Positions 1 to 61,603 of a stretch of DNA of 64,000 nucleotides are shown here, piece by piece. The stretch covers positions 313-64,312 of the forward strand of contig DJVR01000064.1 in the NCBI GenBank assembly GCA_002441285.1, given 5' to 3'. Every line of letters starts with the position of its first letter. The first letter of the stretch is position 1. A model generated the notes under the pieces. The model made no database searches. It was given only the letters and a program-made list of their open reading frames with translations, and had not been told where the DNA came from. Source of the stretch: Candidatus Atribacteria bacterium UBA6251 (lineage in GTDB: Bacteria; Atribacterota; Phoenicimicrobiia; Phoenicimicrobiales; Phoenicimicrobiaceae). The position numbers and the translations under genes were made by a program.

Positions 1-3000
1 GTCTAAAATTAAATTAAGATCAGCCTTTCTTAAAATAGGATTAATTACCCTGCTTATCGGATTAATAGTTACTGGTGCTTACTTAACCATTCGAAGTAAT
101 CTAGCCAGAGAAGAGCTTAAAAGATTGATTGCTGTTCAATTAGAAAAGATTATGGAGCGGGGCATCTATATCGGGAAGATTAAAAATTATTCTCTGCACT
201 CTTTAACTATATCCGATTTTAGAATCTATAGAGATAAAAATTTACAAGCAGAAGATTTGATCTTTTCTGCTGATGAAATGATAGCTAATTATAACCTCGA
301 TCTTTTTTCTGCTCTAAAAAAAGAGACTGGTTTGTTGCTTGAAGATATTACTTTTAGACAAGCAGAAATGACTCTAATTAGGGATCAAAAAGGAGTTTTT
401 GATTTTCCAGAAAAATTTAACCTTCACCTGGATAAGTTTCCAGTATTTTATCAGGTAAAAAAGATTAATTTTCAGGATAGTACACTAAATTACTTAGATT
501 ATTTTACCACTAAGGAAGATGGACTTTGTATTTTAGCAGATTCGGTACAGGGATATTTTAATCTGAGTAATTTGCCCAGGATAGAATTTAATATTTCTGG
601 ATTAAGAAGGGAAGACCAAAGCCCTTTGACTATTGGTGGACAATTTTTTCTTAATTCCTCTAACTATTCTCTGGACTTTACCCTTAAAGAAGCAGAAATT
701 AGTCATTTTCAATATTATGTAAAAGATGCCAGTATATTAAATCTAGAAAAGGGAAAGTTTGACCTTAATTTACATCTTGTTCATAATGAAGAAAATACTC
801 CAGCAGAGCTTATGCAAACTGGAGAAGCTTCTTTTAGAGAAGTAGAATTCTCCCCTGCATTTTTTGGAGGATTAAATTTTCATCAAGCAGAAGGAAAACT
901 TACCTTAAATAATCAAAAGATAACTTTGCAGCAGCTTAAAACCTTCTATCAAGATTCTCCTTTGGTTTTAAGTGGAAAGATTAACTATGATGACCAGGGT
1001 ATAGATTATCATTTAAATCTTAGCTCTAATAATTTTTCTTTAAGCGATTTAGAAGAAGGTTTACAAGAAAATTTTGCTTTTAATTCTGAGCTTAATGTTG
1101 CCGGTACTTCTCATTTAAGGATGGAAATAATTGGTTCATCAGATACACTACAGTTTCAGGGTAGTCTATCCAGTGCGCAGCTAAAATTAGGTGGATATGA
1201 TCTCTTTAAGATGAATACTGACTTTTCTTATGCTCAAGATGTTTTCTATTTAAAAAATTTTGAGGCGGAAGTAGAAAATGGCAAAATAAATGGGAAAGGA
1301 AAGATAATTTCGCTGAACCATCTACCTCAATATAATCTTTCTTTTCATCTAGAAAAGATAGATTCTACCAACCGCTTAATTGCTAATCTTCCTTTAAGTC
1401 TTTTAAAACAAGGTTTATGTTCAGCTGAAGTTGAAATTAATGGTGGGTTGAATTGGGAAGAAAAAATTAATCTTTTCCTGAAAGGAGAAATAGCTAATTC
1501 TTCAGGGACAACCTCCCTTCTAGCTAATGGTTTTATTTTAGAGGGGAACCATCTTAATCTATATGTTGAATGTTCTGGAATTGATCTTAAGGAATGCGGT
1601 AAAATAATTCCTGAGCTTGAGCTTTTTGGAAAGGCTAATTTTAGCGGTGAAATTAAAGGTGTTCCAGAAGATCTAAAAATAAATGGTAATCTAAAAATTA
1701 AAGAGGCTCAAATAGCCAAAATTCCTCTTAATAACTTAGAGACCCGGATAGATTATCAAGCCCATCAAGTAGAATTACAGGATATATTTCTAAAGAATGA
1801 CGGCTTAATAGCAGATGGGAAGGGGAAAATTATTTTTATTGAAAATCAAGGTATCAAGACAGATCTTAATTTTCAAGTCGAAGAGCTGGGTTTAAATTAT
1901 CTTAACCAGTTTATAAGTAAGGAGAATCTCCCTTTAACTGGTAAGGCCAAGGGAGACCTTAAATTACAGGGAATTGATTCAGCCATTACTGCTCAGGGAA
2001 ACTTAGAAATTTGCGATTTTGCAATCGCAGATTTTAAATTTAATTCTGCAGACCTAACCTTTGATTATCAAGAGGGAAAGATAATACTAGATAAAGTTTT
2101 GCTTAATTCCCCAGGAGGTGCTCAATGTTATGCTCAAGGAGACTTAGATTTATCTTCCGAATCTCCCTTGAATTTAAGGATAAATTTCTTAAAGCAAGAT
2201 CTTACCGCTATAATTTCTAATTTTATTAATTTAAAAGAGTTACAAACGATAACTGGGCGGGCTACAGGTTCCCTGGAGATAAAAGGTGACTTAAAATCCC
2301 CTGATTTTACTCTAGCTTCTGTCGTTGATTTTGCTCGGGTAGGGGAAATTCCTTTAAATTCTATAGAGATAAAGGCAGAAAAGATCGGTGAGGTGATTAG
2401 CATAAATAATTTGACTCTGCATCAAAAAAAGGGTAAGTTTACTGCTCAGGGATGGATTGATTTAAGAGAAGATAGGCATAATCTAGGAATTTTACTTAAT
2501 GCTGACCAGGTAGATTTAAAACAATTAAATGATATCTTTGGTTTTACAGAAGAGATTGAGGGTTTAGTGAGCCTGCATGCAGAAATAAATGGTCCTTTTA
2601 ACTCTCCCTATATCTCTATCCAGGGAGATATAAAACAGGGCAAGGTTGCTGATTTTGGGTTTGAAAAATGCAGCATAGATGCCTTATATGAGCAAAATAT
2701 TTTACAGATTAAAAGTTTTAATTTAGAGAAGGAAGGGCATCTTATTCAAGGAACAGGAAGGATTCCTTATAAATTTTCTCCGGGAAATAAGGAAGAAACA
2801 GTTACCAGCCTTGCTGATCTTCCTCTGGATTTTAATTTACTGATGCAGAATATGGAATTAAGTCTATTGGAACTATTATTCCCTCAAGAAATTAAACAGA
2901 TTCAAGGAAGAGGTAATATTTCTTTACAGCTTTCTGGGAGCTTTAATCAACCCATCCTTAATGGAGTGATTTCCTTACAAGTAAGCGAAGCAGAATTTTA

Positions 3001-4147
3001 CTCTTTGTCTAAAAAAATAAATAATTTAAATGCCTCTCTAGAAATAAAAGATAACTTGGTTAAAGTAAAAGAAATGGATTTTTTGGTAGATAATTTTAAG
3101 CTAAATACTGCCGGTACTCTAGTTTTAGAAAAATGGAACCTTCAGGATATTAGTTTAGATCTCTGGACAGCTGAAGAAGCATTTGCCTGGCAGGATATCT
3201 TTCAGGCTCAGGTTAAACTCCAGGCCAGGATAGAAGGTTCCCTTAAGGCAGCCCATCTTTCTGGAAATTTAGTTATTGCCCAAGGGAAGATTAACTGGAC
3301 TACCATTAATCAGAATATTTCATTTCAACCGGATCAGCTTTTTACCCCTTTAGCTGGTTTATCGGGTGATGTTGATTTAGAGATAGAAATTGTTGATGAT
3401 CTTCAGGTAAGAACCTCTGATATTGATTTAAAATTAGGCGGTATTACCAAGCTGCAGGGTGATTTAACTTCTCCCCGTTTTAATGGGGAATTGAAAATTA
3501 AACAGGGATATGTCTCCTTTTTAGATAAGAGTTTCAGAATTTCCAGTGGTAGATTATTATTGGTTGATTCTACAGGAGATGATATGATATTAGATATCGA
3601 TGCACGAACTAAAATTGATGATATAGAGGTATTATTAAAAATAAGCGGTATTTTAGGACGACCAGTTATGACTTTGAGTTCTTCTCCTTCGCTAAGTGAA
3701 GGGGAGATTGTCGCTTTATTAATGTTTAATAAAAATTATGCCGGGCTTACTCAGGGAGAATTAGAAATAGTTTTACAGGAAGAATTAATCAATTTAATTG
3801 CTCAGGGGTTAAGTATAAGATTTTTGAACCAATTGGAAAATAGAATAGCAGAATCTTTAGGTTTGGATGAATTTAAAATAGAAACTATTTTCCAGAAAGA
3901 AGAAACAGATTCTAGTTTTAGCCTTTTTCCTGATTTTAGTTTACAATCTTTAGCTTTTAAATTAGGTAAATATTTTACTGATAATTTCTATTTCAGTTAT
4001 TCTATGCCTTTATTGGAAATGGGTTTGGGAGAGCTGGAACTAGAATTTAAATTAGATGAAGATCTAACTTTTAGCACTAAACTTGATTCTTTAGGTTTAC
4101 AAAAGAATGAATTTGAAGTAAAATTTGAGTTAAACTATGAGTTTTAA
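1..4147 (+). CDS. tamB: TamB-like translocation/assembly module protein (C-terminal DUF490-type), 5' end outside window
   Basis: The ORF track starts at 125, but the same frame stays open back to nt 2. There it encodes a hydrophobic N-terminal anchor (FLKIGLITLLIGLIVTGAYL), so the true start is at or left of the window edge. The protein is >1300 aa, repetitive and beta-rich. The C-terminal block LSSSPSLSEGEIVALLMFNK is typical of TamB. It lies directly upstream of bamA. Confidence 0.8.
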   Translation, partial: SKIKLRSAFLKIGLITLLIGLIVTGAYLTIRSNLAREELKRLIAVQLEKIMERGIYIGKIKNYSLHSLTISDFRIYRDKNLQAEDLIFSADEMIANYNLDLFSALKKETGLLLEDITFRQAEMTLIRDQKGVFDFPEKFNLHLDKFPVFYQVKKINFQDSTLNYLDYFTTKEDGLCILADSVQGYFNLSNLPRIEFNISGLRREDQSPLTIGGQFFLNSSNYSLDFTLKEAEISHFQYYVKDASILNLEKGKFDLNLHLVHNEENTPAELMQTGEASFREVEFSPAFFGGLNFHQAEGKLTLNNQKITLQQLKTFYQDSPLVLSGKINYDDQGIDYHLNLSSNNFSLSDLEEGLQENFAFNSELNVAGTSHLRMEIIGSSDTLQFQGSLSSAQLKLGGYDLFKMNTDFSYAQDVFYLKNFEAEVENGKINGKGKIISLNHLPQYNLSFHLEKIDSTNRLIANLPLSLLKQGLCSAEVEINGGLNWEEKINLFLKGEIANSSGTTSLLANGFILEGNHLNLYVECSGIDLKECGKIIPELELFGKANFSGEIKGVPEDLKINGNLKIKEAQIAKIPLNNLETRIDYQAHQVELQDIFLKNDGLIADGKGKIIFIENQGIKTDLNFQVEELGLNYLNQFISKENLPLTGKAKGDLKLQGIDSAITAQGNLEICDFAIADFKFNSADLTFDYQEGKIILDKVLLNSPGGAQCYAQGDLDLSSESPLNLRINFLKQDLTAIISNFINLKELQTITGRATGSLEIKGDLKSPDFTLASVVDFARVGEIPLNSIEIKAEKIGEVISINNLTLHQKKGKFTAQGWIDLREDRHNLGILLNADQVDLKQLNDIFGFTEEIEGLVSLHAEINGPFNSPYISIQGDIKQGKVADFGFEKCSIDALYEQNILQIKSFNLEKEGHLIQGTGRIPYKFSPGNKEETVTSLADLPLDFNLLMQNMELSLLELLFPQEIKQIQGRGNISLQLSGSFNQPILNGVISLQVSEAEFYSLSKKINNLNASLEIKDNLVKVKEMDFLVDNFKLNTAGTLVLEKWNLQDISLDLWTAEEAFAWQDIFQAQVKLQARIEGSLKAAHLSGNLVIAQGKINWTTINQNISFQPDQLFTPLAGLSGDVDLEIEIVDDLQVRTSDIDLKLGGITKLQGDLTSPRFNGELKIKQGYVSFLDKSFRISSGRLLLVDSTGDDMILDIDARTKIDDIEVLLKISGILGRPVMTLSSSPSLSEGEIVALLMFNKNYAGLTQGELEIVLQEELINLIAQGLSIRFLNQLENRIAESLGLDEFKIETIFQKEETDSSFSLFPDFSLQSLAFKLGKYFTDNFYFSYSMPLLEMGLGELELEFKLDEDLTFSTKLDSLGLQKNEFEVKFELNYEF

Positions 4148-5936: not shown

Positions 5937-6026
5937 ATAAATCATTTAGTTAGTTGATTTAAGTTTAAACCTGAACCAACTAACCAGTTAAGAAAATAAT
6001 TAACCAAAAGAAATTTAAGGAATAAA

Positions 6027-9420: not shown

Positions 9421-11091
9421 ATGAAAAAATTACTTTTAGTACTAGTATTGGTCTTCGCTTTTGCACTTCCTGCATTAGCTAACCCCTTTGCCGATGTTCC
9501 ATTAAATCATTGGGCTTATGATGCTGTACAGTCTTTAGCAGCAAAAGGGGTCATTGTAGGTTATCCCGACGGAACCTTTGGTGGTGGGAAAAACCTAACT
9601 CGTTATGAATTTGCTGAAGCAGTAGCTAAAGCCTTAGCTTACGTAGAAGGTATGGATTTTGCCTCTGCTGAAGATGTAGCTATTCTGGAGAAATTAGCTA
9701 TTGAATTTGCAGATGAACTAGCAAATCTTGGGGTGACTGTTGCTGATTTAGAAGCTGCAGTTGGCGCAAATTCTGAAGCCATTGCAGCTTTAGAAGAGAA
9801 AGTAGCCAAACACGAGAAATTCTTTGAACCATTAACTATTACCGGTCAATTTAGAGTAACTTACGACAAGGACGTTCTCCCCACTTCAGCCACTGCTACT
9901 CTAGTAGATCGTACCAGACTATGGTTTAAAGCAGAAATTAATGATACCACTTCAGCAGGAATTAGACTACAGGCTCAGAATACTATTTATGGTACCCCTG
10001 CTATCACCTGGAGCAATTTCTGGCTTGAACACAATGGAGAAAATCTTTTCCTGAGAGTAGGAGATGTATTACCTGATGCCATCGGTTTAGGTTTAATTGC
10101 TTACTACGGAAAAGATGAATGCAGTTCCTACAACTTTGATGGATTTTTAGCCAAGTGGACCTGGGACGATGTTACTGATACTGATTTAGGTAACTGGACT
10201 TTCTTCGGCGATGTGGAAGATTACTATACTTTACACGTAGCCACCACTCTCGGTGAAAAAGATGAAGTCGATTTAGGTCTTACTGCTTCTTATGATTTAG
10301 CTGCTGGTGGTTATGCTGGTGGTGTAGACTTGGCTTTTGATCTCGGTGAAGAAGATGAAGTATCTATTGGTTTAGAAGGTGGAGTATTCTATGATCCTGT
10401 AGCTGCTGCCCTTTCTTATGCAGCTGCTGTTGATGTCGGAGCTTCCCTCGATGATCTAGCTCTTTCTTTAGGTGCATGGTATGTACTTCCTGGTTTTGCT
10501 CCTACTATGACCGATTATAGTGCAGATACATTAGGTGGCTATGTCCAGGCAAAATACCCCTTCGATGAAGAATTTACTGGAAAGGTAAAATTCACCTATG
10601 AGATGGATTCTGCCTTAACTGCTCCAACTACTCAGAAGGTAAGAGGTACTTTAAACTATGTTCCTGAGGATGGTGCTAAGGATGAAAAGGCAGAAGTCTA
10701 CTTAGAATACAACTTCTTAACTGCTGCTGTTACCGCCTTCGGAAAATATATGAACTATCCATTAGCTGATGACTTTGTATTGAGTGGCTTTGTAAAATAT
10801 GTCTATCCTACCAACAATTATGTAGGAGCAGCTACTTTAGAATATAAATTAGCTGATGATATGGATCTAATGGTTGAAGGTCGTGTAGATAGTGATGGAG
10901 CAGCCCTCTGGAGCGCTGAAGCACAAGTAACCTATGCTATTGCTACTAATACTAAGTTGACCTTTGGTTTTGAAATGAACGATTGGAGTGATAACCTCAA
11001 GGATTACGATCCGATAGATACTTGCGAAGATCAGACTACTATACTTGATAATGTTGGCACTCTGAAGGCTCAACTAACCGTAAGCTTCTAA
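9421..11091 (+). CDS. SLH-domain outer membrane porin (OmpM/Mep45/Slp-like OM-peptidoglycan tether)
   Basis: Signal peptide and an N-terminal SLH motif (FADVPLNHWAYDAVQSLAAKGVIVGYPDGTFGG...TRYEFA). Then a coiled-coil stalk and a long amphipathic beta-strand region ending ...LKAQLTVSF. Codon usage is visibly biased (GCT/GGT/GAT/ACT), with a strong RBS aaggagg. Confidence 0.85.
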   Translation: MKKLLLVLVLVFAFALPALANPFADVPLNHWAYDAVQSLAAKGVIVGYPDGTFGGGKNLTRYEFAEAVAKALAYVEGMDFASAEDVAILEKLAIEFADELANLGVTVADLEAAVGANSEAIAALEEKVAKHEKFFEPLTITGQFRVTYDKDVLPTSATATLVDRTRLWFKAEINDTTSAGIRLQAQNTIYGTPAITWSNFWLEHNGENLFLRVGDVLPDAIGLGLIAYYGKDECSSYNFDGFLAKWTWDDVTDTDLGNWTFFGDVEDYYTLHVATTLGEKDEVDLGLTASYDLAAGGYAGGVDLAFDLGEEDEVSIGLEGGVFYDPVAAALSYAAAVDVGASLDDLALSLGAWYVLPGFAPTMTDYSADTLGGYVQAKYPFDEEFTGKVKFTYEMDSALTAPTTQKVRGTLNYVPEDGAKDEKAEVYLEYNFLTAAVTAFGKYMNYPLADDFVLSGFVKYVYPTNNYVGAATLEYKLADDMDLMVEGRVDSDGAALWSAEAQVTYAIATNTKLTFGFEMNDWSDNLKDYDPIDTCEDQTTILDNVGTLKAQLTVSF

Positions 11092-11120
11092 TTAGAGAAG
11101 TTTTAAAAAGTTAAATTAAA

Positions 11121-11153
11121 TAACCCCCGAAAAATTTCGGGGGTTATTTTTTT
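11121..11153 (+). terminator. Rho-independent terminator of the porin gene
   Basis: TAACCCCCGAAA-aa-TTTCGGGGGTTA stem followed by a T7 run. Confidence 0.85.
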
Positions 11154-11360
11154 ATGGCTATTTCTATTGCGGAGATTCCCAAATTATATTATAATTTAAT
11201 TAGTTACTTGGTTAGATAGTTATCTAGTTAATCTGGTTAATTAGTTGGTAAATAAGTTCCCAGTTAATTAAATAATTACTAAACCAACCAAAACAGTCTC
11301 TATCTATTTTTTCTTAACCATTTAACCAACCAGCTAATTAACAGTTTTTAAATTTTTATA

Positions 11361-11409
11361 TTAACTAACTAATTAACTAACTAACCAGTTAACCATTTAA
11401 CTAACTAAC
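11361..11409. repeat. Octamer-periodic tract (CTAACTAA-like units x6)
   Basis: ttaactaa|ctaattaa|ctaactaa|ccagttaa|ccatttaa|ctaactaa, ending just before the RBS aaaggtgg. The complementary-type words (ttagttac ttggttag ...) lie at about 11201-11260. Confidence 0.8.
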
Positions 11410-11428
11410 AAAAAGGTGGTGGCTATAA

Positions 11429-12361
11429 ATGATATTTAAAAAATCATTTGCTCTTCTTTTGGTAATTATTTTTATCTTTACTTCAGTTTTAGCTAATTTT
11501 TCTTGGGCTGCTGAGGTATCTCAGAAGGCCTTGTTGGCAGATTTATCCCAGATAGAAAAGACTATCTATGGTACAATTTCTACTCAGCCTCTAGTCGAAC
11601 GAGTAGAATACTTAGAAAAAGAAATGGTAGGACGCACTCTTCCCGGAACTATTACCAATAGAGTTAAACAATTGAAAGATTTCGTTATTACTGGCACAAT
11701 GGAAGAACCTTCACTTATCTTCAAAATCAATACTTCCCAGTGGACTCTGGATAACCAGATTTCTAATCAACCTTTAATTACCAAGATTGAAAATTTAGAA
11801 AATTTATTATTTGGTAAAACCTCTGAAGATGTCCTAGCTATGAGAGCAGAAGCAATCTTTAGTCTTTGTTTCAAAGAAGGAAAACCACAATTTACCGAAG
11901 TCATTCTTCCGGCTGGGACCTTAATATTAATCAAGTTCCTTAATCAAGTAAGTTCAAATAAGAGCGAGGAAGGAGAAACTTTTAATTTCCAAGTGGCAGA
12001 AAATATTTTCATAGAAGAAAAACTGGTTATTCCAGCCAATACCCAGGGGGTCGGGAAGGTTTCGGAAGCCAAAAAAGCTACTTTATTGGCTCGTCCGGGG
12101 AAATTGACTCTGGAATTTGAAAAGATTTCTGCATTAGATGGTACTCCCTTACAATTAGTGTTAGGGGAGGAAGCCAAAGAAGAGAATAAAAGGATAGCAG
12201 TAGCAGTAGGAGTGGGTGTTTTGGGTTTAATTATCTTAAGTAATCCAGTGGGCTTAATTGCTGGAGCATTAGTTCCTGGTAAGAATGTGAAGATTGAGGA
12301 AGGGACTGAAATGTTCCTGCAAATTGAACAGGATACCCCAGTTATTGCCTTAGTGCCATAA
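11429..12361 (+). CDS. Hypothetical secreted/membrane protein with a glycine-zipper-like TM segment
   Basis: Signal peptide (FSWAAEV). The C-terminal region carries AVAVGVGVLGLIILSNPVGLIAGALVPG. No family recognised. Confidence 0.55.
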   Translation: MIFKKSFALLLVIIFIFTSVLANFSWAAEVSQKALLADLSQIEKTIYGTISTQPLVERVEYLEKEMVGRTLPGTITNRVKQLKDFVITGTMEEPSLIFKINTSQWTLDNQISNQPLITKIENLENLLFGKTSEDVLAMRAEAIFSLCFKEGKPQFTEVILPAGTLILIKFLNQVSSNKSEEGETFNFQVAENIFIEEKLVIPANTQGVGKVSEAKKATLLARPGKLTLEFEKISALDGTPLQLVLGEEAKEENKRIAVAVGVGVLGLIILSNPVGLIAGALVPGKNVKIEEGTEMFLQIEQDTPVIALVP

Positions 12362-14208: not shown

Positions 14209-14513
14209 TAAAATTCACCTCCTCTCGGATCTTTATTAGTATTATACAGTATCTTCCTAAAAAAATCCTCTTTTTTGTGAAAAATATTTCGATTTCCCCT
14301 ACAAAATTAGAATCAAATATGGTTTTCCCAAGAATACTATCCAGGTTTTTAATAAAGTACTTAATTTTTAAGTGTTTAGACTTTATAGTTATAATATGTT
14401 ATATTATTATAAGTGATTTATTATATTAAATTTTTTACCATAAACAGAATTTTCAACTAAATAACAAAAGAACCAACTAACTAATTAACCAAAAAAGGAG
14501 TCCTCATAAATAA

Positions 14514-15746
14514 ATGCATAGTAAAAATATTTTAATTTTTTCCCTTATCTGTCTATTAATATTATCTATCAATCTAACTGGCTGTTATTTATTCCCTCCC
14601 TCTAATCTCCCTGAATGGACGGTAATGGTCTATCTTGATGCTGATAATGATTTAGAAAGTTATGGGATTAAGGATATCAATGAAATGGAAATGGTCGGTT
14701 CTAGTTCCCAGGTAAATATATTGGTACAAATAGACCGTATTCCTTATAATGTATTAAATTCTCTCTATATAGGGTATCTGGATGATTTTTCTAACAGCAA
14801 CTGGTCTACTACCCGTAGATATTATATTACTCAAGATATGGACCTCAATCTGATAAATTCCCCCTTACTGGCTGATTTAGGCGAATTAAATATGGGAGAT
14901 CCTCAAACCTTGATTGACTTTGTTAGTTGGGCAATTACTAACTATCCAGCCAGGAAGTATTTGCTGGTACTCTGGAATCATGGTGGTGGATTTAGGAGTG
15001 TATCTTTTACTACTAAAGATATTTGCTGGGATTATAGTAACGGTTTGGATAAAATTACTATGCCAGAATTGGCGGATGCTCTTTCAGTAATTAGCAGTCA
15101 GGCTGCTGGGAAAATAGATATATTAGGGATGGATGCCTGTCTTATGGCTATGACGGAAGTTGCTTATCAGGTGAAAGACTTTACCGAAATTATGGTAACT
15201 TCCCAGGAATATGTACCAGCTGAGGGCTGGCCTTATGAGGCTATTTTAGCTGAACTAATTGCCAATCCATCTATGTCTAAAGAAGAACTAGCTACTCAAA
15301 TTGTAGATAAATATATTTTATCTTATCCTTTTAAAAATGTTACCTGTTCAGCAACTGATTTAAGTCAGATGGATATTTTAGCTGGAGAAGTATCTGCACT
15401 GGCTCAAGCGGTAATAGCTGATAATTCTACTTCGAAAAATATATATTTACAATGTGGCCAGCAAAGTCAGTATTTTTCTGATCCTGATTTTGTAGATTTA
15501 TATGATCTTTGTCAACAGTTTTTAAATTATTCTAATAATATAGAGGTAAAAAATATAGCCACCAGCATTCAGCAGACTTTAAATTATGCACGCCTTAAAT
15601 CTGTAAATAATGGGGGAGCACTAAAAGATGCCAATGGTCTTTCCATCTATTTCCCCTGGTATCGTGGTTATTCCAGTTATTATAATTTAACTGATTTTGC
15701 TCAGGATACTACCTGGGATGAAATGCTTTTACATTTAGGGCTTTAA
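14514..15746 (+). CDS. Clostripain-family (peptidase C11) lipoprotein
   Basis: Lipobox LTGC, WTVMVYLDADNDLE, and the catalytic His/Cys context LVLWNHGGGF and LGMDACLMAMTEVAYQ. Confidence 0.85.
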   Translation: MHSKNILIFSLICLLILSINLTGCYLFPPSNLPEWTVMVYLDADNDLESYGIKDINEMEMVGSSSQVNILVQIDRIPYNVLNSLYIGYLDDFSNSNWSTTRRYYITQDMDLNLINSPLLADLGELNMGDPQTLIDFVSWAITNYPARKYLLVLWNHGGGFRSVSFTTKDICWDYSNGLDKITMPELADALSVISSQAAGKIDILGMDACLMAMTEVAYQVKDFTEIMVTSQEYVPAEGWPYEAILAELIANPSMSKEELATQIVDKYILSYPFKNVTCSATDLSQMDILAGEVSALAQAVIADNSTSKNIYLQCGQQSQYFSDPDFVDLYDLCQQFLNYSNNIEVKNIATSIQQTLNYARLKSVNNGGALKDANGLSIYFPWYRGYSSYYNLTDFAQDTTWDEMLLHLGL

Positions 15747-22935: not shown

Positions 22936-23204
22936 TTGATTAATTAATTTGCTAGTCGGTTGGCTGGCTGTTCAATTTTAATTAGTTACCTAATTAATTA
23001 GCTGGTTGTCTAATCTTTTTACCTATCTAATTAACTGGTTAGCCATTTTGTCTATTAAAATTAAAATTAAAACAGCATATAGTTTGTGCTACTTGGCTTT
23101 GGTTTTAAGGGTGGTATTAAATTTATTGATTAGATAAAAAAATAGGTATCAAACAAAAAAGATAAATTTTATTATTTTATTATTTCACTATTATTATTAT
23201 TATT

Positions 23205-24548: not shown

Positions 24549-24971
24549 TAAATTAGTGCATAGTATTGATAATATATAATAATTTGTATCTAACCGTTAT
24601 GTTAGTATTATAGAGTATATTATCTTTAACCAGTAGAGATTGAATAGAAATTGAATTAAAAATTAGATGCTGAAAAATTTTTTATTTTATTATATCTTTT
24701 CCTAACTAAGTAACTATTTAATTAACCAAGATACTAACTAATAAAGCAACTAATCAGCTAATATAGCTAAGTAATATAATCGAGCAATCAATAAATTGAT
24801 TAATTGACAAATTAGAAAAGTAATAAATTAATAAATCACGCAATTGAATTATCGCTTACCAAAACAAATAGTTTCAACAGGACCAGCGGTAAGCATAAAC
24901 TGCAATAGTCTTTTTAATACTAATGATTATTTATTATACACTGACCATTAGAAAATCGGAGAATTTCCTAA

Positions 24972-27483: not shown

Positions 27484-27716
27484 TTAATGAATGTGATTTT
27501 AATCACTATGTGCTCCTTGACAAAAGAATAACTAAGTCAATATCAGGAAAGATTTTAAATTAAAAACTTATCTTAGCACAAAGATAATTCGCTTATCTGG
27601 TGATCTTATAATAATCTTCTTTAAGCTTAATTAACCAGATACACTGTTTTATGGTTTAACATTGCCTGGTGATTATCTTAACAGCTAAATTAGTTAATCC
27701 ACTAACTAACTAATTA

Positions 27717-27744
27717 TGTAACTTTTCTTGACTTTTCTCGTACT
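27717..27744 (+). promoter_or_regulatory. ECF-type promoter candidate (TGTAAC-N16-CGTACT) upstream of the Cys-rich lipoprotein gene
   Basis: tgtaac (27717-27722), 16-nt spacer, cgtact (27739-27744), with the same TGTAACTTTTCT core as 25592. A sigma70-like alternative overlaps it (TTGACT 27728, 17 nt, TAGTAT 27751). Confidence 0.55.
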
Positions 27745-27870
27745 ATTTATTAGTATTTATTTAGTTACTTAGTTAAATAGTTAAAAATTTAATTAATTTC
27801 TTATATTAGGCAAGTTATCTTTATTTTAACTAATTAGTTAACCAATGACTAATAAATGATTATACAGTGG

Positions 27871-36232: not shown

Positions 36233-36276
36233 GGTTACCCAGTTGCCCGGTTATCCGGTTTGCCAGTCTGCCATTT
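36233..36276. repeat. Octamer-periodic tract (GTTNCCNG units)
   Basis: ggttaccca|gttgcccg|gttatccg|gtttgcca|gtctgcca. Bases 36250-36272 recur with one mismatch at 61537-61559. Confidence 0.75.
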
Positions 36277-44581: not shown

Positions 44582-44642
44582 TTGACTTTTCTTTCTTTCC
44601 ATTTTATAATGGTAAAGGTACTAAGTTCACATCTTGAACATT
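44582..44642 (+). promoter_or_regulatory. Sigma70-type promoter plus AAGTTCA-N5-TGAACATT operator (site 1)
   Basis: TTGACT (44582-44587), 17-nt spacer, TATAAT (44605-44610). The palindrome is at 44623-44642. Confidence 0.65.
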
Positions 44643-44789
44643 AATGAGCAGGCTGGTAAGCTAACCAATTAATTAGGGGACTCTTAAATTGGTTGATTAG
44701 TAATTATTGCTTAGCCATTATCGATTAGCAATTGCTGTTTGCCTTTTGCCTTGGTTGATTGATACACCGTATAATTGAAAGGACTCCTT

Positions 44790-45532: not shown

Positions 45533-46032
45533 TACTTACAACCTAAAAAGATATAAATTATCTCATTACCTTGCACTTTGAAATGCTTAATATACAAGGG
45601 TTTCAGAACCCTCTTAAAATTATAAAAAATATTCATCACGAAAATCGTCTCCAAAGCAAGTAAAAGAGTGCCATAAATAGCCTTTTGAGCTCTTGAAAGG
45701 GTTGCTATATAAGGCTTTCAAGTGATATTCGCGTATAACGCGTATAATGCATTTTTTTGAAGTCCATAAGGTAAAACCCTTTAAATTTCAAAAAAATGCT
45801 TAATATGAGCGTTCTATTAGATCTAGCCCAAAAGGCTTTTATGATAAGGGTTTCCGACAGCTCAATAATGAAATAATTAACTAATGCTTAGCTTAGTGGG
45901 ATAGATAATCGTTCACTGTTTCAGGAAAATTAAATATTAGAAATAATTGGTCAATTGAATAACCTGGCAACTTTTTTAAAACTGTAAACTTTACATTTGC
46001 AACTTGCATCTAACTTTTCATCCTGAATTTTT

Positions 46033-46104
46033 AACCGGTAAATCGGGTAACTGGTTAACTGGTGAACTGAGTCTGACCGCTAGACTGGAAGACTGGGAGA
46101 CTAA
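46033..46104. repeat. Octamer-periodic tract (ACTGGNNA units x8)
   Basis: aaccggta|aatcgggta|actggtta|actggtga|actgagtctg|accgctag|actggaag|actgggag|acta, immediately upstream of the ugd RBS. Confidence 0.75.
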
Positions 46105-46127: not shown

Positions 46128-47489
46128 ATGAATATATGTATTATCGGTACTGGCTATGTTGGCCTGGTCACAGGCACTTGCCTTGCTGACTTTGGTCTTT
46201 CTGTAACCTGTGTTGATCAAGACGAAACAAAAATTTCTCTTCTAAACTCCGGTGGCGTTCCCATTTACGAACCGAATTTAGAAGCGTTAATCCAAAAGAA
46301 CATCTCAGCTGGCCGTCTTACCTTTACCACTGACCTTGAAAAAGCAGTCCAACAATCCAAAGTAATCTTTATTGCTGTTGGAACTCCTCCCAATCACGAT
46401 GGATCCACAAATTTAGAGCAGATTGAAAAGGTAGCCCAGCAAATTGCCGCCTCTCTAAATGAATATAAAGTTATAGTAAACAAAAGCACTGTCCCCATCG
46501 GCACCGCCACCAAAATCAAAGAAATAATAAATAAAAATGTCATTGCGAGGAGCGAAGTAAGCCTGCCCCAGCGAAAGCAGGGGAAGCAATCTCACCCTCA
46601 ATTAAAACCAATTGAATTTGACGTCGTCGCCAACCCTGAATTCCTTCGGGAGGGCTCAGCAGTCTATGACTTTACCCATCCCGATAAAATAGTAATCGGC
46701 ACCGAAAGCCCCAAGGCTCTAAAGATAATGCAGGAAATTTACCGCCCTCTCTACCTTATCGATACACCCTTTGTGATTACCAATCCCGAAACTGCAGAAT
46801 TAATTAAATATGCCTGTAATGCCTTTTTGGCTACCAAGATTACCTTTATTAATGAAATTGCCAACCTCTGTGACAAAGTAGGAGCAGATGTGCATCAGAT
46901 AGCCAAAGCTATGGGTTTGGATGGCCGTATCAGTCCTAAATTTCTCCATCCCGGTCCTGGTTATGGTGGCTCCTGTTTCCCTAAAGATACCGAAGCCCTT
47001 TATCATTTTGCATCAACTTGCGGATATGATTTTAAACTCCTAAAAGGGGTAATCTCTGCCAACAATCGCCAAAGAGAACTGATGGTAGAAAAAATTAAAC
47101 ATCATCTTGGCAATCTTAAAGGAAAAACCATCGGCATCTTAGGCCTGGCCTTCAAACAAAATACTGATGATATTCGAAAATCCCCTGCAATTGATATTAT
47201 CCAACTATTACTTAAAGAAGGCGTGCGTATCAAATGCTTCGACCCTCTGGCAATGGATAATACTAAAAAAATCCTTCCCAACTTAACCTATTGCCAGGAT
47301 GAATACGAAACTGCTCAAGATAGTGATGCCCTGGTAATTGCTACTGAATGGAATCAATTCCGTAATCTGGACCTACTTAAAATAAAAAAACTATTAAAAT
47401 CTCCCACCTTACTTGACCTAAGAAACTTATACGACCCAGAAAAAGTAAAACTCTTAGGCTTTATCTATGAGGGAGTAGGAAGGAAATAA
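46128..47489 (+). CDS. ugd: UDP-glucose 6-dehydrogenase
   Basis: N-terminal ICIIGTGYVGLVTGTCLADFG, NPEFLREG and catalytic GGSCFPKD. Carries a 19-codon in-frame insert at 46539-46595. Confidence 0.9.
   Translation: MNICIIGTGYVGLVTGTCLADFGLSVTCVDQDETKISLLNSGGVPIYEPNLEALIQKNISAGRLTFTTDLEKAVQQSKVIFIAVGTPPNHDGSTNLEQIEKVAQQIAASLNEYKVIVNKSTVPIGTATKIKEIINKNVIARSEVSLPQRKQGKQSHPQLKPIEFDVVANPEFLREGSAVYDFTHPDKIVIGTESPKALKIMQEIYRPLYLIDTPFVITNPETAELIKYACNAFLATKITFINEIANLCDKVGADVHQIAKAMGLDGRISPKFLHPGPGYGGSCFPKDTEALYHFASTCGYDFKLLKGVISANNRQRELMVEKIKHHLGNLKGKTIGILGLAFKQNTDDIRKSPAIDIIQLLLKEGVRIKCFDPLAMDNTKKILPNLTYCQDEYETAQDSDALVIATEWNQFRNLDLLKIKKLLKSPTLLDLRNLYDPEKVKLLGFIYEGVGRK
46539..46595. repeat. Family E hairpin element inserted in-frame in ugd
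   Basis: gtcattgcgaggagcgaagtaagcctgccccagcgaaagcaggggaagcaatctcac. Terminal ATTGC/GCAAT inverted repeat and an internal CCCC-a-GC-GAAA-GC-a-GGGG hairpin. Translated as VIARSEVSLPQRKQGKQSH. Confidence 0.7.
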
Positions 47490-61387: not shown

Positions 61388-61433
61388 TTTTGGAAAAGAA
61401 AAACGGGGACTACTTTTTAAATCCAAGATGTGT

Positions 61434-61468
61434 TTAGTATTTAGTCGTTAGTATTTAGTATTTAGTGA
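61434..61468. repeat. Heptamer tandem repeat (TAGTATT x5, degenerate)
   Basis: tagtatt|tagtcgt|tagtatt|tagtatt|tagtgag. Contains the 18-mer TAGTCGTTAGTATTTAGT (61442-61459). Confidence 0.8.
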
Positions 61469-61603
61469 GGAAAAGATTATTTAATTTACCAATTGACCGA
61501 TTAAAGATACAAGTTACAAGATAATTCAGTTAGCCTGTTATCCGGTTTACCAGTCTGCCGGTCTACGATTCTGAATAAATTCATATATGTGGGTATAAGT
61601 GTT

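What the first reader, a model, noticed from the sequence alone, without database searches (positions are those of the whole stretch)
11201..11425. Octamer-periodic TAAC/GTTA word tracts fill many intergenic regions (STRR-like)
Many spacers consist of degenerate tandem 8-mers:
- 11361-11409: ttaactaa|ctaattaa|ctaactaa|ccagttaa|ccatttaa|ctaactaa.
- 36233-36276: ggttaccca|gttgcccg|gttatccg|gtttgcca|gtctgcca.
- 46033-46104: actggtta|actggtga|...|actggaag|actgggag.

Similar word-rich tracts lie at about 5941-6010, 14455-14500, 22936-23050, 24700-24830, 27640-27860, 44645-44770 and 61480-61570.

In 11201-11425 a T/G-type half is followed by its A/C-type complement, forming a long imperfect dyad. 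Several tracts end right at the RBS.

A 23-mer (GTTATCCGGTTTGCCAGTCTGCC, 36250-36272) recurs with one mismatch at 61537-61559.

Short tandem heptamer repeats (STRR) are known in heterocystous cyanobacteria. An 8-nt analogue concentrated in 5' regions is not something I recognise. Possible roles are unstructured leaders, curved promoter DNA, nucleoid-protein sites or slippage-driven expression variation.
Basis: partly seen in the sequence, partly recalled or inferred. Interest (0 to 1): 0.5.

Follow-up and report, generated by a model that had tools for sequence, protein, structure and literature searches.

The report
Mosaic octamer repeat arrays between genes
The flagged tracts are real: an uncultured Atribacterota family fills the untranslated gaps between its genes with fast-changing arrays of 8-base TAAC units (and 7-base relatives), an 8-base cousin of the unexplained cyanobacterial STRR and Beggiatoa TAACTGA repeats, with function still unknown.

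Summary
Observation confirmed. In this 1.7-Mb Atribacterota MAG, period 8 is the strongest local periodicity in intergenic DNA: 145 windows against 24 in dinucleotide shuffles.

- TAAC-to-TAAC distances peak at 4, 8, 16 and 24 bases.
- All 23 strict arrays lie outside ORFs.

In 27 of 29 genomes of the same family the arrays are sharp: about five TAACYRRN units. They usually come as a GTTA-type arm, a variable core and a TAAC-type arm. That order was seen 37 times and the reverse order never.

The TAAC-sense end stops right at the Shine-Dalgarno site (28 of 63 arrays against 6 expected). Three loci place arrays inside transcribed 5' leaders.

The arrays behave as dispersed mosaic repeats:
- Whole 165-base composites recur at 92% identity within one genome.
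- Between congeneric genomes with 91-99% identical genes, every array-bearing spacer compared is deleted or replaced by other 7- or 8-base arrays.
- The two arms show no covariation and no G-U bias.
- The arrays are no less structured than random spacer.

Best reading: STRR-like, copy-pasted non-coding modules tolerated only in untranslated spacer, decayed in this genome. A leader or translation role is not excluded. The closest published analogue is the TAACTGA heptamer repeat (MacGregor 2015). Verdict: a new variant of a known, unexplained kind.

The parts
11118..11149 (+). Intrinsic terminator of the upstream porin-like gene (9421-11091). It lies upstream of the repeat dyad.
   Evidence: 14-bp stem, 6 G-C pairs, T run. 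The terminator is conserved in the family relatives.
11167..11195 (+). Predicted promoter of gene 11429-12361: -35 TTGCGG (11167-11172), 17-nt spacer, -10 TATAAT (11190-11195). The inferred start of transcription is near 11202.
   Evidence: Sequence read. The same hexamers are kept in all family-f1 orthologous loci and are invariant in the 3-genus alignment. The simple consensus scan did not list it because the -35 matches only 3 of 6. The start site is inferred, not mapped.
11199..11258 (-). GTTA-type arm (TAAC units on the minus strand): about six 8-nt units beginning at the predicted transcription start.
   Evidence: (chain at C15 11515-11541, which is window 11203-11229). The first three units are invariant in genera g1, g2 and g3.
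11285..11333 (+). Decayed internal TAAC-type units within the core of the dyad.
11361..11409 (+). TAAC-type arm: about 6 octamers with 4-nt sub-period. It ends 5 nt before the Shine-Dalgarno GGTGGTGG (11415-11422). The start codon is at 11429.
   Evidence: It pairs with the GTTA arm in the predicted fold.
14453..14494 (+). Solo TAAC-type array of 5 units ending at the SD of the clostripain-like lipoprotein gene (14514-15746).
   Evidence: (C15 14767-14801).
36233..36276 (-). Solo array of the AACYGGNN subtype. It reads GTTA on the + strand and starts 17 nt after the stop of the upstream gene. It contains the 23-mer 36250-36272.
46031..46104 (+). AACYGGNN-subtype array upstream of ugd (46128-47489).
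61513..61563 (-). AACYGGNN-subtype array with the second copy of the 23-mer (61537-61559, one mismatch).
5937..6026 (.). Weaker, decayed TAAC/GTTA tract. Similar tracts lie at 22936-23060, 24690-24840 and 27630-27870.
   Evidence: lag-8 self-identity 0.41-0.54.
61433..61466 (+). Heptamer array TTTAGTA x 4.9, a co-resident 7-nt family.

Best explanation
**What it is**
The tracts belong to a lineage-specific family of short tandemly repeated, dispersed, non-coding modules. They are STRR-like in composition and MITE/BIME-like in behaviour.

**The basic module**
- About five 8-nt units, TAAC-Y-A/G-R-N.
- A second subtype is (T/A)AAC-Y-G-G-N.
- The outer unit is typically TAACTAAW.
- Modules are usually joined as GTTA-arm, variable core (itself built of heptamer arrays), TAAC-arm, often with a heptamer tail.

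**How it behaves**
- *Shown:* whole composites and single modules are copied between spacers.
- *Unknown:* whether the copying is transposition or ectopic recombination / template switching between arrays.
- *Shown:* the modules turn over far faster than the flanking genes.
- *Inferred:* they survive only in untranslated DNA because the TAAC strand closes all three reading frames. The hypervariable block therefore runs from the stop codon of one gene to the Shine-Dalgarno site of the next.
- *Shown at three loci:* the arrays lie downstream of the promoter, so they are carried in 5' leaders or intercistronic RNA.
- *Inferred:* the hairpin potential of a dyad follows from two inverted copies of one periodic motif. 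It is not a selected structure.

**In this genome**
The family is sparse and decayed. Its survivors sit almost all next to the SD. That leaves room for a secondary, generic leader role.
For: **Real, periodic and non-coding:** (0 of 131 arrays in ORFs across three genomes).

**Family-wide, with very uneven abundance**
- Found in 24 of 24 and 27 of 29 f1 genomes.
- Counts range from 1 to 270 pattern matches within a single genus.
- Found in 3 of 22 sister-family genomes and 0 of 34 in the rest of the phylum.

**Discrete architecture**
- Modal number of units is 5, with fixed inner and outer flanks.
- Neighbouring arrays are ordered minus-then-plus 37 times and plus-then-minus 0 times.

**Dispersal of whole composites:** three loci in one genome align over about 165 nt at 92% column identity, covering arms, a 72-nt core and the heptamer tail.

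**Turnover between congeneric G002 and G007 (genes 91-99% identical)**
- One element is a clean presence/absence.
- The others are replaced by different 7- or 8-nt arrays.
- Homology resumes exactly at the SD.

**Interchangeable modules:** the ychF leader carries either the TAAC x5 array or a CGAGATA-type heptamer array in different genomes. The flagged leader behaves the same way.

**No selection for pairing**
- Cognate arms are not more complementary than non-cognate arms (0.71 against 0.74).
- On the sense strand, G-U pairs number 80 and A-C pairs 81.

**Frame closure:** 84% of TAAC-sense arrays close all three frames, against 22% of random spacer 40-mers.
Against: - No transposase or other mobilising enzyme was found, and no target-site duplication. 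Y1-transposase gene counts do not track array abundance.
- SD adjacency is far stronger than random placement within the same spacer: 28 of 63 against 6.1 expected, and 10 of 12 in this genome. A purely selfish model needs targeted insertion or selection to explain this.
- T1 and A6 of the unit stay at 86-97% while positions 5, 7 and 8 vary freely. This could reflect recognition by a factor rather than concerted evolution.
- Part of the flagged dyad is conserved across three genera.
- Gene calls are crude (longest ORFs). Arrays were ascertained by requiring AAC. The G002 contigs were chosen because they had hits.
Confidence: 0.5

Rival explanations
1. The TAAC-sense arrays are generic cis-acting RNA elements of 5' leaders. 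Placed just 5' of the SD, they would be bound by a component of the translation apparatus or an abundant RNA-binding protein (S1, cold-shock protein or similar). They would act as enhancer, standby site or translational insulator, as proposed for TAACTGA repeats. Dispersal would be the way the element is recruited.
For: - Strict sense orientation next to start codons: solo arrays have the outer end near a start 13 times and the inner end once.
- The end of the array sits 12-28 nt from the start codon far more often than chance allows.
- Arrays lie in transcribed leaders, downstream of conserved promoters and of a cobalamin riboswitch.
- In the array-poor genome the survivors are SD-adjacent (10 of 12).
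- The analogous TAACTGA arrays sit directly before start codons in other phyla (PMC4679880).
- Among TAAC-octamer arrays from other phyla, 32 of 121 end within 30 nt of an ORF start.
Against: - At the same orthologous leader the TAAC array is replaced by unrelated arrays (AATTGG octamers, CGAGATA or CTATTCA heptamers) or is absent, with no sign of cost.
- Half of all arms abut stop codons in the antisense orientation.
- The downstream genes form no class.
- The arrays are no less structured than random spacer.
- Abundance differs 100-fold within one genus.
Confidence: 0.25
2. The arrays are DNA-level operator-like sites. An oligomerising DNA-binding protein would bind successive 8-bp boxes on both arms and structure or insulate inter-operon DNA. 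The model is the ribbon-helix-helix proteins that bind tandem 8-bp met boxes, 4+4-bp ParG boxes or 7-bp omega heptads.
For: - Strict 8-bp phase.
- Conserved TAAC plus A6 with free positions 5, 7 and 8.
- A fixed number of boxes (5) in two inverted sets.
- No RNA-pairing signature.
- The comparison with MetJ, ParG and omega rests on my own knowledge and was not tested here.
Against: - No candidate protein was identified.
- The arrays lie downstream of the promoters rather than over them.
- A hundred-fold variation in site number among congeners and free replacement by other repeat families argue against a dedicated regulator.
- The unit is not palindromic, unlike a met box.
Confidence: 0.1
3. 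The tracts are contingency loci: slipped-strand mispairing changes the number of units and so switches expression of the downstream gene.
For: - Tandem short units lie between promoter and start codon.
- Unit number differs between orthologues: 6 against 5 units in the flagged GTTA arm of G000 and G002.
Against: - Neighbouring units are not identical.
- The modal number is fixed at 5.
- Downstream genes are housekeeping genes (ychF, dapA, mreB, dnaB, pfkA) rather than surface-variation genes.
- Orthologous differences are replacements, not unit steps.
Confidence: 0.05
4. The tracts are chance products of AT-rich composition or of plain neutral slippage, with nothing shared between loci.
For: The genome has 33.5% G+C and its spacers are A/T-rich.
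Against: - The excess over dinucleotide-preserving shuffles is 6- to 100-fold.
- Shared flanks and cores, fixed polarity and family-restricted distribution all point to a common origin.
Confidence: 0.02

Closest known systems
TAACTGA heptamer direct repeats of marine Beggiatoaceae, some Cyanobacteria and Bacteroidetes (MacGregor 2015, Front Microbiol, PMC4679880)
   Same: - Short tandem units beginning with TAAC.
- 2-6 copies per set and more than 100 sets per genome.
- Almost all intergenic.
- 'Forward' orientation pointing at the start codon.
- Stop codons in the forward frames.
- Downstream genes form no functional class.
- Patchy taxonomic distribution.
- Function unknown.
   Different: - The unit here is 8 nt and degenerate (TAACYRRN). 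No tandem TAACTGA occurs in this genome.
- The arrays stop at a canonical SD 13-20 nt before the start, instead of replacing the RBS about 1 nt before it.
- Most arrays in the rich genomes are paired with an inverted arm, whereas one inverted set was reported there.
- They are embedded in a mosaic with several other 7- and 8-nt families.
STRR, the short tandemly repeated repetitive heptamers of heterocystous cyanobacteria (Mazel et al. 1990; recalled from memory, not read here)
   Same: - Several families of short tandem units dispersed through intergenic DNA.
- Species-specific abundance.
- Intergenic regions that vary highly between close relatives yet remain 'structured'.
- Function unresolved for decades.
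   Different: - A different phylum (Atribacterota).
- The dominant family has an 8-nt unit.
- About five units in inverted pairs with fixed polarity.
- A sharp boundary at the SD.
MITEs and mosaic intergenic repeats (BIMEs / REP, Correia, RUP)
   Same: - Non-coding and dispersed.
- Inverted arms.
- Whole-element copies at 92% identity.
- Presence/absence between close genomes.
- Carried inside transcripts.
   Different: - The arms are internally periodic arrays rather than unique terminal repeats.
- No target-site duplication and no cognate transposase were found.
- No arrays lie next to the Y1/RAYT-like genes.
- The arms change faster than the core.
Tandem operator boxes of ribbon-helix-helix proteins (MetJ 8-bp met boxes, ParG 4+4-bp boxes, omega 7-bp heptads; from memory)
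   Same: Tandem 7- or 8-bp boxes, 2-10 per site, in direct or inverted sets.
   Different: - Those number a handful of sites per replicon, overlapping promoters, each with a known protein.
- Here there are up to hundreds of sites, downstream of promoters, with no protein known.

Membership tests
TAACTGA repeats (MacGregor 2015) | The unit is the heptamer TAACTGA in direct tandem. | tested here: not met
   0 tandem TAACTGA in G000. The units are 8 nt, TAACYRRN.
TAACTGA repeats (MacGregor 2015) | Forward orientation immediately upstream of start codons; intergenic. | tested here: met
   The gap to the start codon is 13-20 nt and holds an SD, unlike the roughly 1 nt with no RBS reported in the paper.
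Cyanobacterial STRR | Tandem heptamer units. | tested here: not met
   The flagged family has period 8. Heptamer families do co-occur.
Cyanobacterial STRR | Many dispersed intergenic copies whose abundance and content vary between close relatives. | tested here: met
MITE | Terminal inverted repeats flanking a short non-coding core. | tested here: met
MITE | Target-site duplication at the insertion. | tested here: inconclusive
   One clean filled/empty pair and three aligned copies show no clear duplication.
MITE | A related autonomous element encoding a transposase with the same ends. | tested here: not met
   no gene bracketed by minus-then-plus arms that looks like a transposase. This covers only G000 and about 400 kb of two relatives.
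REP / RAYT (REPIN) system | A Y1 (RAYT) transposase gene flanked by the repeats, with repeat abundance tied to it. | tested here: not met
   none of 6 PF01797 loci in G000 is flanked by arrays; a single 3-unit chain lies near one of them; gene counts are similar in f1 and f2 and do not track array counts.
Contingency-locus simple sequence repeats | Identical units whose number varies by slippage. | tested here: not met
   Units differ within an array and the modal number is 5. Orthologues differ by replacement.
Known RNA families (Rfam 15) | A match to a curated covariance model. | tested here: not met
   no Rfam match at gathering score anywhere in the window.

The most novel reading that the evidence does not exclude
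TAAC-anchored 7- and 8-nt tandem arrays placed in sense orientation just before translation starts would form a cross-phylum class of leader element. The phyla are Atribacterota here, Beggiatoaceae, Cyanobacteria and Bacteroidota in the literature, and the same in my genome scan. A conserved part of the initiation machinery, such as S1 or another single-strand binder, would read them. The dispersed modules would then be a mobile way of installing that signal.
Probability: 0.12. Interest if true: 0.8.

Novelty: new variant of a known kind. Interest (0 to 1): 0.5.

Why it matters
**The open question**
Short tandemly repeated intergenic arrays have been known since 1990 (STRR) and 2015 (TAACTGA). 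Neither their function nor their mechanism of spread has been established.

**What this lineage adds**
- It is a third, unrelated lineage showing the phenomenon.
- The array is unusually regular: five 8-nt units in fixed-polarity inverted pairs.
- Turnover is measurable between congeneric genomes.
- There is a statistically sharp boundary at the ribosome-binding site.

**What becomes testable**
- Does the TAAC array act in the leader?
- What copies the modules?

**Practical consequences**
- These arrays fragment MAG assemblies.
- They make spacers unalignable.
- They can mimic regulatory hairpins in annotation.

Tried and rejected
**Selected RNA hairpin: rejected**
- Cognate arms are not more complementary than non-cognate arms.
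- The sense strand shows no G-U over A-C bias.

**Unstructured or G-poor leader: rejected**
- MFE equals that of random spacer.
- Ordinary leaders in this genome have more G than C.

**RAYT/REP association: rejected**.

**Autonomous parent element:** none found in the DNA I held.

**Rfam:** no match in the window.

**Transcript evidence**

**Strain-level variation**
- An exact-word scan of metagenome contigs with the locus promoter found nothing.

**Pairing of TAACC(C) to the conserved 16S GGGUUAA segment**
- I considered this from memory and did not test it against rRNA.
- In other phyla, position 5 of the unit is pyrimidine in 82 of 121 arrays, with no strong CCC preference, so I dropped it.

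**Literature**
- Searches for Atribacterota repeats found no prior description.
- The STRR primary papers are not in the library.

Full report
**Source and setting.** The window is C15:313-64312 of a 1.705-Mb, 67-contig, 33.5% G+C assembly. Earlier notes of this scan call it an uncultured Atribacterota MAG. A GTDB record titled Atribacterota carries the same arrays before the same gene (L124). I called genes crudely as longest non-overlapping ORFs of at least 80 aa, which leaves 14.5% of the genome intergenic.

- The flagged stretch has 6 GTTA and 0 TAAC in 11195-11300. It has 12 TAAC and 1 GTTA in 11301-11425. About 0.5-0.6 of each is expected.
- Tandem Repeats Finder reports period 4/12/16 at 11360-11409 and period 8 at several other listed tracts.
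- Genome-wide, 40-nt windows of spacer DNA with lag-8 self-identity of at least 0.6, 0.65 and 0.7 number 145, 44 and 19. Dinucleotide-preserving shuffles give 23.8, 2.8 and 0.0. Lag 7 is second and all other lags are far weaker.
- Same-strand TAAC-TAAC distances peak at 4, 8, 16 and 24. AGTA and TAGT peak at 7, 14 and 21.
- Chains of at least four AAC at 8/16-nt steps number 23, and none lies in an ORF.
- The 23-mer recurrence is exact to one mismatch.
- Of the listed tracts only 44640-44775 is weak.
- 'Many intergenic regions' is generous for this genome: strict arrays sit in 20 of 885 spacers. The window's contig holds 6 of the 23 strict arrays.

**Anatomy, seen best in relatives.**
- The strict pattern TAAC(N4) x4 occurs in 24 of 24 genomes of the same family (f1), with 1 to 270 matches per genome. 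It occurs in only 4 of 16 genomes of the sister family.
- The x5 pattern occurs in 27 of 29 f1 genomes, 3 of 22 f2 genomes and 0 of 34 genomes of five other families of the phylum.
- I fetched 244 kb of G002 and 156 kb of G019. There the arrays are sharply bounded.
- The modal array has five units of T(91-97%)-A-A-C-Y(C 56, T 41)-A(88%)-R-N.
- There is a weak position-specific consensus. The second unit is often TAACCAGG and the outer unit TAACTAAW. The inner flank is T-rich.
- A second subtype, (T/A)AACYGGN, corresponds to the window tracts at 36233, 46031 and 61513.
- Arrays within 300 bp of each other are always ordered minus then plus: 37 cases against 0. On either strand a GTTA-type arm therefore precedes a TAAC-type arm.
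- The core between arms is 7-195 nt and is often itself made of heptamer arrays.
- The outer flanks frequently carry further short arrays: CGAGATA- and ACGCTNN-type heptamers and NNAATTGG octamers.
- In the unbiased G019 sample, 24 of 90 spacers of at least 60 nt hold an array. No array lies in an ORF in any of the three genomes.

**Position relative to genes.**
- The 3' end of the TAAC strand always faces outward, toward a gene boundary.
- Where it faces a start codon, the last unit ends 13-20 nt upstream, directly against the SD. Where it faces a gene end, it lies 0-28 nt from the stop codon.
- Solo arrays have the outer end within 40 nt of a start 13 times and the inner end once.
- I compared this with uniform placement inside each array's own spacer. 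Of 63 start-facing arrays, 28 end 12-28 nt from the start against 6.1 expected (P < 5e-6 by simulation). In this genome the figure is 10 of 12 against 1.0.
- The downstream genes are ordinary: ychF, dapA, mreB, dnaB, pfkA, relA, ruvA, rsfS, lptB and L25, besides the secreted proteins of the window.

**Are the arrays transcribed?** Three loci say yes, by inference from conserved signals.
- *The flagged locus.*
  - The porin-like gene ends in an intrinsic terminator at 11118-11149.
  - A promoter follows (-35 at 11167-11172, -10 at 11190-11195). It is kept in every f1 orthologue and is invariant in a three-genus alignment.
  - The GTTA arm begins at the predicted start near 11202, so the whole dyad would be a 5' leader of about 225 nt.
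- *ychF.* All f1 genomes share a TGnTATAAT promoter, and the arrays lie between it and the SD.
- *A btuF-like gene on contig C44.* A cobalamin riboswitch (RF00174, 93.7 bits) lies upstream of a TAAC array that abuts the SD.

**Turnover and dispersal.**
- Three loci of G002 align over about 165 nt at 92% column identity. The alignment covers the GTTA arm, a 72-nt core, the TAAC arm and a heptamer tail. Homology ends abruptly at both sides. Whole composites are therefore copied between loci.
- G002 and its congener G007 have flanking genes 91-99% identical, yet every array-bearing spacer I compared differs.
  - One 97-nt dyad is cleanly absent.
  - Others are replaced by different mosaics: AATTGG octamers, CTATTCA, GTAACNN or TACGCTN heptamers, and GC-rich hairpins.
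  - Some spacers gain or lose 70-230 nt.
  - In each case alignment resumes a few bases before the SD and stops just after the stop codon.
- In the ychF leader, four genomes carry the TAAC array, decayed in G000. Nine carry instead one particular heptamer array with the same idiosyncratic second unit. That points to copying, not independent slippage.
- In the flagged leader, the dyad is shared by G000 and G002 and is truncated to three GTTA units in G001. It is replaced by other modules in six further f1 genomes. Sister-family genomes carry CTAAAAA- or ACTAAAK-type heptamers there.

**Tests of mechanism.**
- *A selected hairpin is not supported.*
  - Cognate arms pair no better than arms taken from different loci: Watson-Crick fraction 0.71 against 0.74.
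  - On the sense strand of co-directional genes, non-canonical positions are G-U 80 times and A-C 81 times.
  - The -43 kcal/mol fold of the flagged leader (z = -2.1) follows from two inverted copies of one periodic motif.
- *An unstructured-leader role is not supported.*
  - TAAC-sense arrays fold at -2.9 kcal/mol against -3.3 for random spacer 40-mers.
  - Ordinary leaders here have more G than C.
- *Frame closure is real.* The TAAC strand closes all three reading frames in 84% of arrays against 22% of controls. This explains their absence from ORFs and echoes the argument made for TAACTGA.
- *No mobilising gene was found.* Y1-transposase-like genes occur equally in array-rich, array-poor and sister-family genomes and are not flanked by arrays. 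No target-site duplication is evident.

**Interpretation.** The evidence fits dispersed, rapidly exchanged, non-coding modules that fill whatever DNA between a stop codon and the next SD is not under selection. The copying mechanism is unknown. Candidates are transposition by an unidentified enzyme, or ectopic recombination / template switching between arrays that share 8-nt periodic microhomology.

Two results keep a functional reading alive:
- the excess of arrays ending exactly at the SD, strongest in the array-poor genome;
- the constancy of T1 and A6 beside freely varying positions 5, 7 and 8.

I therefore give 0.5 to selfish or neutral mosaic repeats carried in transcripts, 0.25 to a generic leader element, 0.1 to DNA-level protein-binding arrays, and little to phase variation or chance.

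**Comparison with what is known.**
- The nearest published case is the TAACTGA heptamer repeat of marine Beggiatoaceae, also seen in Cyanobacteria and Bacteroidetes. It has 169 sets of 2-6 copies, forward orientation directly before start codons, no gene class and unknown function (PMC4679880). A later Thiomargarita paper only notes its presence.
- The present family shares the TAAC start, the orientation rule and the frame-closing property.
- It differs in unit length and degeneracy. It also stops at a canonical SD, is paired in fixed polarity, and is embedded in a mosaic.
- Cyanobacterial STRR heptamers (from memory) share the dispersed, multi-family, hypervariable character.
- I found no description for Atribacterota.

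**A wider hint.**
They came from many phyla, above all Bacteroidota.
- Of 121 arrays, 32 end within 30 nt of an ORF start, against 18 on the reverse side.
- One Parabacteroides locus shows GGTTA-arm / TAACC-arm dyads.
- The scan had no control tetramer, so this is a lead only.

**Limits.**
- Gene calls are crude.
- AAC was required for detection, so its conservation is not evidence.
- The G002 contigs were chosen by hits.
- All genomes are MAGs.
- Promoters and start sites are inferred from sequence conservation.

**Verdict.** This is a new 8-nt, dyad-forming variant of a known but unexplained kind of bacterial repeat.

Noticed in passing
G000 contig C44:6569-6751 (locus L224:1170-1352, minus strand): A cobalamin riboswitch (RF00174, 93.7 bits) behind a TGnTATAAT-like promoter. 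It controls a btuF-like periplasmic binding protein gene. A four-unit TAAC array sits between the riboswitch's terminator-like stem and the SD.
   Followed up: partly
L159 (Parabacteroides faecalis NZ_JAKZMM010000027.1), around matches 1805-3815: A Bacteroidales genome carries long GGTTA-type octamer arrays followed by TAACC-type arrays. The polarity is the same as in the Atribacterota dyads, and the arrays lie next to gene starts. Many other Bacteroidota have TAACNNNN arrays ending a few bases before ATG.
   Followed up: partly
L044-L057 and L002/L008/L011 (relatives): A specific heptamer module (CGAGATA, CGATTCA, CGAGATA, CGAGATA) with the same odd second unit recurs at many loci and in several genera. 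It is often the outer tail of the TAAC arm or lies alone before an SD.
   Followed up: partly
L098-L101 (sister-family f2 orthologues of window gene 11429-12361): Genomes that lack TAAC octamers still have CTAAAAA / CCAAAAA or ACTAAAG / ACTAAAT heptamer runs directly before the SD of this gene. Short tandem arrays in this leader therefore reach beyond family f1.
   Followed up: no
window 1-64000 (contig C15): 6 of the genome's 23 strict TAAC arrays lie on this one 72-kb contig, which is about 4% of the assembly. The contig carries the outer-membrane assembly and polysaccharide gene clusters.
   Followed up: no
L092 (G014) and G007:C67 22476-22607: A GC-rich hairpin repeat (GGCAGACnnnAGGTCTGCCC-type) sits in relatives at spacers that hold TAAC dyads in G002. 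It appears to be a separate small mobile repeat family competing for the same sites.
   Followed up: no
window 61433-61466: A heptamer array TTTAGTA x 4.9 lies just upstream of the AACYGGNN-type array at 61513-61563. This is one example of the octamer/heptamer mosaics inside this window.
   Followed up: no
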